A stretch of 64,000 nt of DNA from an uncultured Candidatus Rokubacteria bacterium (GTDB lineage: Bacteria > Methylomirabilota > Methylomirabilia > Rokubacteriales > CSP1-6), in the NCBI GenBank assembly GCA_963789955.1, contig CAWBMV010000006.1, forward strand, positions 128,001 to 192,000, read 5' to 3'. Position numbers: made by a program. This document shows, piece after piece, positions 18,001 through 21,000 of the stretch (the first letter of the stretch is position 1; every line of letters starts with the position of its first letter).

Positions 18001-21000
18001 CCGGCTTCGGTCTGGGCTTCTTCGAGGTGCCGAACATGACGACGATCATGACGGCGTTCCCGTCCGGCCAGCAGGGAGCCGCCGGCGGCCTCTCGTTCCT
18101 GGCGCGCACCCTCGGCGTCGTCACCGGCGTCGCGGTGACCGGGCAGATCGTCGCCGCCCGCACCGCGGCGGTCGGCTTCCTCGGCGCGTTCGCCGAGTCG
18201 CTCCTGGTGGCCGCGGTCGCGGTCGCCGTCGCGTCGGTCTTCGCGCTCGCCGGCGCGCGCGCTCGGCGCTGAGCCCGGCGCGGCGCTATACTGCTGGCCA
18301 TGAAGGTTCTGTGAGGGGGAGGGAGGCACCGATGGCAGCTGCGCTCACGTCCAAGCGGCATCGCGTCGACGATGTCGACGCCGGCGAGTTCTGTTTCCAG
18401 CAAGGGTGGACCGACGGCCTGCCGGTGGTCCCGCCGACCGAAGACCGCGTGCGCATGATGCTCGCCGCGGCGCGGCTCGATCCCAAGCAGGAGATCGCCT
18501 ACATCACGAACCGGTCGGTGTCGGTCACCGCGGAGAAGGTCGCGATCAACGCGGTCATGGCCGGCTGCCGGCCCGAATACATGTCGGTGGTCGTCGCCGC
18601 GGTGGAGGGCATCGGCGATCCGGCGTGGAGCTATCACGGGCCGGGCACGTCGACCGGCGGCGCCGGCGTGCTCATGATCATCAACGGACCGATCACGCGC
18701 GAGCTCGACATCAACGCCGGCGACAATCTCTTCGGGCCGGGCTGGCGGTCGAATCTCACGATCGGGCGCGCGCTGCGCCTGGTGATGCGCAACGTCTGCG
18801 GCTCGTTGCCCGGGCTCCTCGACCGTGGCACGCTCGGCCATCCGGGCAAGCTCTCGTTCGTGATCGCCGAGAACGAAGCGGAGAGCCCGTGGACTCCGCT
18901 CCACGTCGAGCGCGGCTTCCGGCCCGATCAGAGCACGGTCACGGTCATGGCCGCCGAGGCGCCGCATCAGTTCTACAACCAGCTCTCGCCCGACGCCGAA
19001 GGCGTGCTGACCACGCTCGCCGATTCGATGAAGCATTCGGGCGGCGCCGGCCGGCAGCCGCAGTACGTCGTCACCCTGGCCGGCGAGCACATGCGCACCA
19101 TCGCCGGCAGCGGCTGGGGCAAGAAGGAGATCCGCCAGTTCCTGTTCGACAACACGAAGAACACGATCGCGCATCTCAAGCGCACCCACCGCATCCCGGG
19201 CGCGATTCAGCCCGGCGACGACACGAAGCTCCGGCCCATCGTCGCGGAGCCCGACGACCTCCTGATCGTCGCGGCCGGCGGGCGCGCCGGCTCGTTCTCG
19301 TCGTTCATCCCGGGATGGGGCGGTGCCCGTTCGTCCCTCGCCACCACCAAGGAGGTCAAGCGATGATCGAGCTTCTGGATCCCACGGTCGAGGCGGCCAA
19401 GCAGCCGATCGCGTACGTGGATCGGCCCGGGTCCCTGAAAGGCAAGCGGATCGGCCTGATCGAGAACACGAAATACAACTCCGACAAGCTGCTGGTGCGG
19501 ATCGGCGAGATCTTGAAGGCCGAATACGGGGCCAGCGAGACGCGCCTGTTCCGCAAGCACAACGCGTCGGTCCCGGCGCACGAGGAGATCATCCAGGAGG
19601 TGCGGAAGACCTGCGACGTCATCGTCGCCGGTGTCGGAGACTGAGGGTCCTGCTCGTCGGGCAGTGTGCTCGACGGAATCGTGCTGGAAAAGAACGCGGT
19701 GCCGGCGGCGTCGATCATCACGGATGTCTTCGAGAAAACGGCGCGCGCGATGGCTGAGCAATGGGGCGTACCGACCTACAAGTTCCTGATGATGCCGCAC
19801 CCGATCGCGAATCTCAGCGAGGCGGAGCTCGACAGCCGCGCGCGGGAGATCGCACCCGAGGTCGCGAAGCTTCTGCTGAAGGGCCAGGAATAGCGACCGC
19901 GTTCCGGCCGCCCTGGTGGTGCCGGAACGCGCACGTCCAGACTGATCTGGGGCCCGCTCTTCCGCCGTCACCGGATCCGGTGGCGGCGGGAGCGGGTCGC
20001 CACCGCCGACGGTGACTTCGTCGATCTCGACTGGGCTGACTCGGCCCGCCCCGACGCGCCGCTCGTGCTGGTGCTCCACGGCCTCGAAGGCTCGTCGAGC
20101 TCCCACTACGTCGTCGGCCTCACGCGCCAGGCGCTCACGAGAGGCTGGCGCGCCGTCACCCTGAACTTCAGATCGTGCAGCGGCGAGCTGAATCGCCTCC
20201 GCTCGTTCTACCACTCCGGGCACACTGCCGATCTGGACGAAGTCGTCCGGCTGATCGTCGGGCGAGAGCCAACCGTCCGTATCGGCGCGGTCGGCGTGTC
20301 GCTGGGCGGCAACGTCCTGCTCAAGTGGCTCGGCGAGCGGGAAGCCGCCGTGCCCGACGCGGTCGTGGGCGCGGTCGCGATCTCGGTGCCGTTCGATCTC
20401 GCGCACTGCGCCGAAGCTCTCGACCGCGGCTTCTGCCGCCTGGTCTATGGCGCGAACTTCCTCGGGACCATGCGGGACAAGATCCGCCTCAAGGCGGCGC
20501 GCGATCCGGGACTGGGCGAGATCGTCGACGTCCCGCTCGCGCTTCGCGCGCGAACCTTCGCCGAGTACGACCGCGCGGTGACGGCGCCGCTCAACGGCTT
20601 CGCGAACGAGCGCGACTACTGGACGCGCGCGTCGAGCGCGCCGTACCTCTCCCGCATCCGGCGGCCGACCTTGCTCGTCAACGCGCTCGACGATCCGATC
20701 GTCCCGCCCAGTGCGCTCCCCGATCCGGCCGAGCTGCCGCCCTGGGTCCGCGCGGAGTTCGTCCGGCGCGGCGGGCATGCGGCGTTCCTCGAAGGCCGCT
20801 GGCCCTGGCGGGTCGAGTCGTGGGCCGAGCGCCGGGCCGTCGAGTTCCTGGACGGGCTCGTCGCCGGTGAACGCGCCGTCCCCGCCGGCCCGGTCTGCTA
20901 GCATGCGGACCATGCGTCAGGACGCCTACGGGTCTGCCGGTGAGCACCGACGCGGCCGCCACGGTCGAGGCGTACGATCACGCGGTCGATGCGCTTCTCT

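What a model noticed while it worked through the whole genome (the two positions that open the first line are those of the whole stretch)
18332..19893. Unnamed 330-residue domain family is the fused or adjacent partner of UGSC selenoproteins
Nine paralogs of a roughly 330-aa domain that no library names occur in this genome; four are fused behind a UGSC selenoprotein module, two in front of it and one (g01445, C6) sits directly upstream of a separate UGSC gene, each UGSC with its in-frame TGA. Boldest reading: the UGSC selenocysteine module is the redox arm of a two-part enzyme whose catalytic body is this new domain, which has no clear solved fold. New: a first functional partner, and a handle for assays, for the orphan UGSC selenoprotein family, and a very large unnamed protein family.
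Evidence so far: Members: g01445 (C6:146332-147366) + UGSC g01446/47; UGSC-U-domain: g01068/69 (C3:53207-54817), g02323/24 (C12:136335-137876), g04157/58 (C22:152928-154811), g01947/48 (C8:38170-39891; near-copy g02762 on C13); domain-UGSC-U: g03687/88 (C19:52667-54235), g05881/82 (C34:762786-764354); stand-alone g00512, g00171. Read-through frames are open across ...GSAD-TGA-GSCTSW... and ...GNAA-TGA-GSCATAC... into the domain. blastp among members 29-54% identity over 200-380 aa; 24 invariant columns incl. DGLPxxPPT, INAVMAGC, GPG.R.N.TIGRA, ENE..SPW. No Pfam or NCBIfam hit for the domain at E 0.005/0.01. Profile search: 7917 of 8000 scored clusters at E<=1e-10; the 120 listed are all unnamed or 'hypotheti [...]
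(Added by a program. Inside this text positions count along the whole contig: contig position 128,001 is position 1 of the stretch shown here. "Call 12" and the like, gene names such as g00115 and contig names such as C1 are that model's own, and its searches are not shown. The text may have been shortened before it was handed on; [...] marks where a part breaks off. The agent that wrote the report below was given it as the finding of a first reader that could run no searches.)

Follow-up and report, generated by a model that had tools for sequence, protein, structure and literature searches.

The report
UGSC selenoprotein with its partner enzyme
Two coupled genes in a soil bacterium encode a selenium-containing protein and a large unnamed partner that probably form one reductive enzyme; the pairing was noted in 2008, the reaction is still unknown, and structure models now suggest how to test it.

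Summary
The gene pair is real: a 344-aa protein with no Pfam/NCBIfam/PHROG hit (18332-19366) overlaps by ATGA a UGSC selenoprotein gene (19363-19893; TGA = Sec94, with a covarying SECIS hairpin). The partner is not new: it is 'Unknown_1' of Zhang & Gladyshev 2008 (Fig. S1A), and this scan reported the pair before on other genomes. Added here: the coupling is near-obligate (75 of 80 and 76 of 80 loci). The domain models confidently (pLDDT 96) without a close solved fold (best Z 6.4). UGSC models as flavodoxin-like, not thioredoxin-like, and its Sec half weakly resembles the PrdB/GrdB Sec domain. A natural Cys-type pair is predicted to bind (0.84, best control 0.00), with the Sec site in the interface. 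Donor modules (redoxin, ferredoxin:thioredoxin reductase, a small CxxC protein, TrxR) travel with relatives. Best reading (0.5): a heterodimeric thiol-fed reductase whose Sec attacks a substrate held by the partner, expanded in Rokubacteria and Dehalococcoidia. The substrate is unknown.

The parts
18322..18326 (+). Shine-Dalgarno-like GGAGG before the ATG at 18332
   Evidence: sequence
18332..19366 (+). Gene for the 344-aa UGSC partner ('Unknown_1' family); large subunit of the proposed enzyme
18413..18439 (+). D28-G-L-P-x-x-P-P-T36 motif; D28 near-invariant; P34-T36 in the predicted UGSC interface
18566..18568 (+). Cys79 of N-A-V-M-A-G-C, the conserved Cys marked in the 2008 figure (150 of 156 representatives; Gly/Ala in the C8, C13 and C12 paralogs)
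18767..18769 (+). Arg146, invariant (157 of 157 representatives, 42 of 42 paralogs)
18869..18871 (+). Glu180, near-invariant (154 of 156; 42 of 42)
19350..19366 (+). AGGAGG ribosome-binding site and ATGA stop/start overlap: translational coupling of the two genes
   Evidence: sequence; same overlap in orthologues
19363..19893 (+). UGSC selenoprotein gene, 176 aa with TGA read as Sec; flavodoxin-like alpha/beta model; small subunit
19642..19644 (+). In-frame TGA = Sec94 in D-U-G-S-C (UxxC); Cys at this site in 13 of 80 related loci
   Evidence: tRNA-Sec, SelA and SelB on C1
19654..19676 (+). SECIS-like hairpin: 10-bp stem, apical loop GUG 19 nt after the UGA

Best explanation
The two genes encode a heterodimeric, thiol-fed reductase. 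Shown (by computation): they are translationally coupled, almost always adjacent or fused across several phyla, and TGA is decoded as Sec. Modelled: UGSC is a flavodoxin-like alpha/beta protein with Sec94 at the start of the helix after strand 3. It docks on the partner through its N-terminal LLDPT segment and lays the U-G-S loop on a surface made by the partner's conserved PPT, N73/M76, T108 and N154-G161 segments. Inferred: the partner binds and activates a small substrate at that junction; the selenolate attacks it, as Sec does in the PrdB/GrdB proteins whose Sec domain UGSC resembles; Cys97 resolves the adduct to a selenenylsulfide; a dithiol donor re-reduces it (a fused redoxin, a ferredoxin:thioredoxin reductase domain, or a small CxxC protein with TrxR in relatives; presumably the general Trx/TrxR system in this genome). 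Many paralogs per genome among catabolic genes suggest different organic substrates, possibly CoA-linked ones with a reducible C-S, S-O or C-N bond. The substrate is a guess.
For: Linkage: UGSC adjacent in 75 of 80 loci found with the domain; domain directly upstream in 76 of 80 loci found with a UGSC; 29 of 31 UGSC matches within 400 bp of a domain in G001-G004. Complex: ipSAE 0.84 against best of 3 controls 0.00 (mark reached by 116 of 157 solved and 2 of 215 mismatched pairs; runs agree in >=97% of contacts; partner pLDDT 88), interface includes UGSC 94-96 (natural Cys-type pair L139, 65%/about 60% identical to the window proteins). PrdB likeness: hhalign score 34.6, E 3e-4, 77 columns, U-x-x-C in register; 60 column-shuffles reach at most 20.7, a redoxin control 18.9; the comparison set hits TIGR04483 PrdB. 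Donors: of 55 longer representatives, 31 hit UGSC, 5 redoxin and 2 FeThRed_B; both redoxin-fused loci fetched also have a UGSC gene next door; a small CxxC protein follows UGSC in 12 of 13 Cys-type loci, with TrxR in 4 of them. Sec is kept where Cys79 is lost.
Against: No substrate, activity or solved structure. The PrdB likeness is weak (probability 40-48%, 5 sequences on one side), and no UGSC member of A2 hit GRDB in Pfam at E<=1. The complex was folded for a Cys-type orthologue pair, not the window proteins, and shows only the model's confidence. Three fused members (P0146, P0223, P0243) lack both U/C94 and C97. 9 of 25 domain copies in G002 and 2 in G000 have no adjacent UGSC. The window's neighbours are generic (MFS, alpha/beta hydrolase, TPR protein), the small CxxC gene was not found in G000, and the catabolic neighbours in G002/G003 were not tested against a genome background.
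Confidence: 0.5

Rival explanations
1. One reading: UGSC is only an electron shuttle that reduces a catalytic Cys79 (or a Cys79-Cys177 pair) of the partner, which does all the chemistry.
For: Cys79 is conserved in 150 of 156 representatives and 38 of 42 paralogs, Cys177 in 130 of 156; M76, three residues before Cys79, is in the predicted interface; the 2008 paper suggested a redox role for this Cys.
Against: Cys79 is not among the listed interface residues (unlisted residues are uncertain). It is Gly or Ala in the C8, C13 and C12 paralogs, which keep Sec; residue 177 is Val in the window protein. Separate dithiol donors sit beside UGSC rather than replacing it.
Confidence: 0.2
2. The pair traffics sulfur, selenium or a metal/Fe-S cluster (carrier or assembly role) rather than reducing an organic substrate.
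For: The only near-whole-domain structural matches are class I fumarate hydratase alpha subunits, which bind [4Fe-4S] (7xky Z 5.4, 175 aligned, rmsd 4.8; 6mso Z 5.4, 196 aligned, rmsd 6.0). The small CxxC neighbour looks NifU-like by eye (recalled, no library hit). Rhodanese genes lie beside two loci.
Against: No profile similarity to the fumarase alpha family (score 14.8, shuffles up to 25.2); only one widely conserved Cys; up to 25 paralogs per genome fits substrate diversity better than a housekeeping carrier.
Confidence: 0.12
3. A covalent-catalysis lyase or transferase with no net reduction: Sec/Cys forms a transient adduct, and the dithiol modules only keep it reduced.
For: Neighbours are CoA transferases, enoyl-CoA hydratases, thiolase-like proteins and amidohydrolases; some members lack C97 or both Cys.
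Against: A dedicated TrxR and CxxC protein inside the cassette, and fused redoxin or FTR domains, suggest stoichiometric electron supply.
Confidence: 0.1
4. An antioxidant or repair system (peroxide or sulfoxide reduction, peroxiredoxin-like).
For: AhpC/TSA-redoxin fusions; UxxC motif; most predicted bacterial selenoproteins are thiol oxidoreductases (PMC2398784 passage).
Against: The redoxin is an add-on, not the domain; neither subunit has a Trx/Prx fold; large paralog expansions among catabolic genes.
Confidence: 0.08

Closest known systems
UGSC/Unknown_1 fusion selenoproteins (Zhang & Gladyshev 2008, PMC2398784, Fig. S1A)
   Same: Same domain: the figure's block (A-x-N-x-V-M-A-G-C-x-P-E-Y ... 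N-G-P) matches residues ~71-128 of the window protein by eye; Dataset S1 holds UGSC-U-domain reads with the DGLP..PPT and ENE motifs.
   Different: Here two coupled genes, not a fusion. The paper gave a 60-residue block, called the domain limited to some aquatic organisms and guessed a Trx-like fold for UGSC; here the family is very large, abundant in soil lineages, and UGSC models as flavodoxin-like.
UGSC family (seleno)protein, Pfam PF24696 / NCBIfam NF041046
   Same: The 176-aa product passes both cut-offs.
   Different: The models cover only UGSC; no model covers the partner.
Glycine/sarcosine/betaine reductase protein B (GrdB + GrdE) and D-proline reductase (PrdB + PrdA)
   Same: A UxxC selenoprotein paired with a second subunit and re-reduced by dithiols (PMC13188914 and PMC10838667 passages); the C-terminal 77 columns of UGSC align with PrdB-like proteins, Sec in register; families with many substrate-specific paralogs.
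   Different: UGSC has no GRDB/TIGR01918 hit; the partner has no hit to the GrdE/PrdA proprotein family (PF09338) and no known pyruvoyl site; no GrdA/GrdC genes were seen beside the loci annotated; hosts include soil and freshwater bacteria.
Class I fumarate hydratase alpha subunit (7xky, 6mso) and AroH chorismate mutase/YjgF-type alpha+beta subdomain
   Same: Weak fold likeness: Z 5.4 over 175-196 residues, and Z 6.3-6.4 over 81-92 residues of the C-terminal part.
   Different: Z below 8, Foldseek TM-score 0.28, no profile similarity, not the three Fe-S cysteines.

Membership tests
UGSC family (PF24696 / NF041046) | Score above the curated cut-offs | tested here: met
   194 bits vs 25; 146 bits vs 125
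UGSC family (PF24696 / NF041046) | U/C-G-S-C motif with Sec/Cys pairs among homologues | tested here: met
   D-U94-G-S-C97; Cys in 13 of 80 related loci
Bacterial selenoprotein gene | SECIS after UGA: 4-16 bp stem, 3-9 nt loop with G, 16-37 nt spacing, <= -7.5 kcal/mol (model as given in PMC13188914) | tested here: met
   10 bp, loop GUG, 19 nt, -14.6 kcal/mol. Sec-type mean z -1.89 (n=81) vs Cys-type -0.17 (n=13) against synonymous recodings; 2 of 7 pairs covary, 98% of cells paired. Against dinucleotide shuffles the window stretch alone is not unusual (z -0.51).
Bacterial selenoprotein gene | Sec machinery in the genome | tested here: met
   tRNA-Sec C1:731972, SelA C1:733652, SelB C-terminal domain C1:736567; SelD not searched
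Bacterial selenoprotein gene | Selenium shown in the protein | not testable with these tools
   needs 75Se labelling or mass spectrometry
Unknown_1 (2008) | Match to the published alignment block with its conserved Cys, and fusion to UGSC | tested here: met
   compared by eye with the text of Fig. S1A; fusions at C3, C8, C13
Thioredoxin-like fold (2008 guess for UGSC) | Trx fold with CxxC after the first strand | tested here: inconclusive
   The model is a five-strand beta-alpha repeat with U94 after strand 3; the top matches are flavodoxin/receiver/Rossmann-type. No Trx fold among the rows listed, which does not formally exclude it.
GrdB/PrdB selenoprotein B (PF07355, TIGR01918, TIGR04483) | HMM hit above cut-off | tested here: not met
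   no hit for P0002 or any of 87 UGSC members
GrdB/PrdB selenoprotein B (PF07355, TIGR01918, TIGR04483) | Homologous Sec domain with UxxC in the same register | tested here: inconclusive
   profile-profile E 3e-4, above 60 shuffles and a redoxin control, probability only 40-48%
GrdE/PrdA pyruvoyl proprotein (PF09338) | Family hit and self-cleavage to a pyruvoyl group | tested here: not met
   no Pfam hit for P0001 at E<=1; self-cleavage itself not testable
Class I fumarate hydratase alpha subunit (PF05681) | Sequence profile and three Fe-S cysteines | tested here: not met
   hhalign score 14.8 within the shuffle range; only Cys79 and Cys177 are widely conserved

The most novel reading that the evidence does not exclude
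UGSC plus Unknown_1 is an unrecognised third branch of selenol-nucleophile reductases, sharing the Sec domain of glycine/proline reductase protein B but using a substrate-binding subunit of new fold in place of a pyruvoyl protein. It is expanded to 5-25 substrate-specific copies in Rokubacteriales, Dehalococcoidia and Binatia for reductive cleavage of C-S, S-O or C-N bonds in recalcitrant organic matter.
Probability: 0.3. Interest if true: 0.8.

Novelty: new member of a known kind. Interest (0 to 1): 0.5.

Why it matters
[quoted passage not shown] The partner family has thousands of clusters, a match in all 106 genomes sampled from this genome's order and about 25 copies in one Dehalococcoidia genome, yet no family model. 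The models give a concrete complex, candidate catalytic residues and an electron chain. The all-Cys cassette with its own TrxR and CoA enzymes can be expressed without Sec machinery, so the question is directly testable. The pairing itself is not news.

Tried and rejected
Sequence searches of solved structures with P0001, P0002, A1 and A2: nothing below E 0.25. Fold searches of the domain: no Z >= 8 among 48,161 representatives or 925 Foldseek picks; this does not prove a new fold. ESM Atlas: look-alikes are the family itself, some auto-named 'thioredoxin family' (probably from redoxin-fused members); no named outside family. Fumarase-alpha homology and an internal repeat: not supported by profiles. 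My idea that the P-G-C-G-S linker of redoxin fusions replaces UGSC: rejected, both such loci have a UGSC gene next door. The NADH-dehydrogenase-like gene upstream in 8 loci lies on the opposite strand and was dropped. Gene neighbourhoods gave no single pathway. No sigma-70 promoter or convincing terminator. RNA-library contigs from 4 studies cover both genes and two bridge the junction, but contigs cannot show transcription and the runs were chosen with this stretch, so I do not count this as expression. Two script runs had a wrong motif pattern and gave nothing; corrected. Paper searches that found nothing further on function; subscription papers and database comments are outside this library.
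Full report
1. The observation. The window holds an ORF of 344 aa at 18332-19366 whose stop overlaps (ATGA) the start of a second gene, 19363-19893, with its own AGGAGG site. 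With TGA at 19642-19644 read as Sec the second gene gives 176 aa with D-U94-G-S-C97 and passes the cut-offs of PF24696 and NF041046. The first protein has no Pfam or NCBIfam hit at E<=1 and no PHROG hit at E<=0.1. The genome (G000; nearest named relatives are Candidatus Rokuibacteriota) has tRNA-Sec, SelA and SelB together on C1. A 10-bp hairpin with a GUG loop 19 nt after the UGA meets the four SECIS constraints given in PMC13188914. Alone it is not unusual against dinucleotide shuffles (z -0.51). Across relatives it is: 72 of 81 distinct Sec-type segments form a helix of 7 or more pairs against 4 of 13 Cys-type ones, mean z against synonymous recoding is -1.89 against -0.17 (kin are not independent), and in 26 hand-picked segments 98% of cells pair, with changes on both sides at 2 of 7 pairs. 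Cys stands at the Sec site in 13 of 80 related loci. Sec decoding is therefore very likely.

2. The paralogs, with one correction. tblastn finds 10 domain loci and one 5' fragment (C4) in G000. At C3, C8, C13, C12 and C22 the frame runs from UGSC through the TGA into the domain; the same fusion is intact in independent assemblies (L006, L016, L017, L022, L023, L036). The two 'domain-then-UGSC' fusions are not real: at C19 and C34 G000 has one extra base against each of the three relatives aligned, and 7 of 7 and 6 of 7 same-genus orthologues are two genes with an ATGA overlap. The exception (L236) has its own frameshifts. Five database proteins also look domain-first; I did not check them at DNA level. 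Contigs from RNA libraries list no indel inside 18332-19893 among the rows shown but several in flanking genes, so the window pair reads correctly in an error-prone assembly.

3. It is in print. Zhang & Gladyshev 2008 (PMC2398784; I saw main-text passages, the text of Fig. S1 and passages of Dataset S1) state that the UGSC protein is fused to a conserved domain 'Unknown_1' with a conserved Cys. The Fig. S1A block matches residues ~71-128 of the window protein by eye, and Dataset S1 holds UGSC-U-domain reads with the DGLP..PPT and ENE motifs. The later reviews I searched list UGSC without function (PMC13188914, PMC9312934, PMC1976440: passages only), and 'Unknown_1' with 'selenoprotein' and 'fused' returned only the 2008 paper. 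The scan itself has at least eight earlier notes on this pair in other genomes; I had found the 2008 paper before reading them, and took from them the lead that relatives carry TrxR.

4. Coupling and range. Of 80 genome loci found with the domain, 75 have UGSC adjacent (73 downstream, 2 upstream); 4 of the other 5 have at most 217 bp of downstream flank, and 1 has full flanks without it (without the one locus of an unpublished genome, 74 of 79). Of 80 metagenome loci found with a Cys-type UGSC, 76 have the domain directly upstream and the other 4 have under 160 bp of upstream DNA. These are the best-scoring loci, so mostly close kin. In four whole genomes 29 of 31 UGSC matches have a domain within 400 bp, and 29 of 38 domains have a UGSC; the 9 without are all in G002, a Dehalococcoidia genome with about 25 copies. 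The domain is found in 106 of 106 genomes of this order and 17 of 45 others of the class (three are unpublished), and in 5 of 401 genomes of G001's phylum with one protein query.

5. Structure. With 117 diverse sequences the domain models at pLDDT 96.2, pTM 0.94. No solved chain reaches Z 8. The C-terminal part resembles AroH/YjgF-type subdomains (Z 6.3-6.4, 81-92 residues), and only class I fumarate hydratase alpha subunits align over most of the length (Z 5.4, rmsd 4.8-6.0); profiles do not support that kinship. A new fold is possible, not shown. D28, R146 and E180 are near-invariant; N141, W187 and C79 follow. C79 is Gly or Ala in the C8, C13 and C12 paralogs, and C177 is Val in the window protein. 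UGSC models (pLDDT 92.8) as a five-strand beta-alpha repeat with U94 at the start of the helix after strand 3; its matches are flavodoxin, receiver and Rossmann-type proteins, none standing out. This does not fit the 2008 guess of a Trx-like fold. From memory I suspected a likeness to PrdB/GrdB and tested it with five PrdB-like selenoproteins from G000 and G003: 77 columns align with U-x-x-C in register, score 34.6, E 3e-4, above 60 shuffles (max 20.7) and a redoxin control (18.9), at probability 40-48%. It is a lead, not membership.

6. Complex. A natural all-Cys pair (L139; partner 65% identical to the window protein) was folded with alignments: ipSAE 0.84 against a best control of 0.00 of 3; the mark was reached by 116 of 157 solved and 2 of 215 mismatched pairs; runs agree in at least 97% of contacts; partner pLDDT 88. 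No like complex was found by sequence in the PDB. The interface has two parts: UGSC residues 1-10 against partner residues 7-13 and the PPT motif, and UGSC 94-96, 99-103 and 123-135 among the residues touching the partner, whose side includes N73, M76, T106-T108, L150 and N154-G161 (window numbering). Cys79 and Cys97 are not listed, which the tool says is no evidence either way. The window's own Sec-type pair was not folded as a complex; binding there is inferred by homology.

7. Electron supply and context. Of 55 longer representatives scanned (of 150 listed), 31 hit UGSC, 5 AhpC-TSA/redoxin and 2 the ferredoxin:thioredoxin reductase catalytic chain (one of these also UGSC); 18 gave nothing useful, among them tandem double domains and lipoprotein-like forms. 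Redoxin fusions still have a UGSC gene next door (2 of 2). In Cys-type loci an 83-aa CxxC protein without any family hit follows UGSC in 12 of 13, and TrxR lies in 4 of them (TIGR01292 over cut-off in the two tested), with acyl-CoA dehydrogenase, CoA transferase, acyl-CoA ligase, a TctC-type binding protein and a GntR regulator. The same small module is fused to the domain in P0128, P0162 and P0204 (by eye). G000 lacks a detectable copy of it and has one clear TrxR elsewhere on C6. Around G001-G003 copies lie CoA transferases, amidohydrolases, luciferase-like monooxygenases and SDRs (126 of 168 neighbours scanned); these families are common in such genomes and no background was computed. Against uniform redox function: three fused members lack both U/C94 and C97.

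8. Mechanism and verdict. Most likely (0.5) a heterodimeric reductase: dithiol donor > UGSC U94/C97 > substrate bound by the partner at the subunit junction, working like protein B of the glycine/proline reductases (chemistry as described in PMC10838667 and PMC13188914 passages) without being a member of that family. Gene coupling and Sec decoding are shown computationally; the complex and folds are modelled; the chemistry and substrate are inferred. Rivals: UGSC as a mere shuttle to Cys79 (0.2), sulfur/metal trafficking (0.12), non-redox covalent catalysis (0.1), antioxidant (0.08). The locus is a new member of a known, uncharacterised pair. The interest lies in the testable model for an abundant orphan enzyme, not in the pairing. 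Supplements of the other papers were not read and may bear on the claim that no function is in print.

Noticed in passing
window 17073, 17595, 19943, 20930, 22022, 22189, 22402: Contigs from RNA libraries lack one base at these places; they explain the split MFS gene (17117-18272) and the broken starts or ends of the downstream hydrolase and TPR genes. Probably assembly errors.
   Followed up: partly
L139:5562-5810, L129:2344-2601 and 10 more Cys-type loci: An 83-86 aa CxxC protein (A-C-E-E/D-C-L-V-P) with no Pfam, NCBIfam or useful PHROG hit follows UGSC and is fused to the partner in P0128, P0162 and P0204; probably the thioredoxin equivalent of the cassette.
   Followed up: partly
G000:C22:52088-52519 (L092) and G000:C1:590970-591194 (L094); L091, L093, L095: PrdB-like selenoproteins (V-U-P-x-C) with in-frame TGA beside luciferase-like monooxygenases, CoA transferase and amidohydrolases; no PrdA-like gene seen in the ~3 kb fetched.
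   Followed up: partly
G002 (locus L057 and L096-L117): About 25 copies of the partner and 18 of UGSC in one 3.7-Mb Dehalococcoidia chromosome; several copies have changed residues 164, 191 and 252-253, suggesting different substrates.
   Followed up: partly
G000 C4:1346-2188 vs C3:53207-54820; C8 vs C13: C4 is a truncated near-copy of the C3 locus and C8/C13 are near-duplicates; may reflect strain mixture (contamination 5.14%) rather than true paralogs.
   Followed up: no
P0146, P0223, P0243: UGSC-partner fusions in which both the Sec/Cys site and the resolving Cys are replaced (Ile or Trp at 94); possibly non-catalytic members.
   Followed up: no
P0234, P0160; P0125, P0133, P0137, P0147, P0164, P0207: Members with TAT or lipoprotein-like N-termini, and tandem double-domain proteins of about 710 aa.
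   Followed up: no
L100:14100-14798: A glutaredoxin-DinB_2 fusion near a partner gene in G002 whose called start cuts the glutaredoxin domain; may be another selenoprotein.
   Followed up: no
G000:C12:136335-137879: The C12 paralog has H-U-S-T-C instead of D-U-G-S-C and Ala in place of Cys79: a divergent subfamily.
   Followed up: partly
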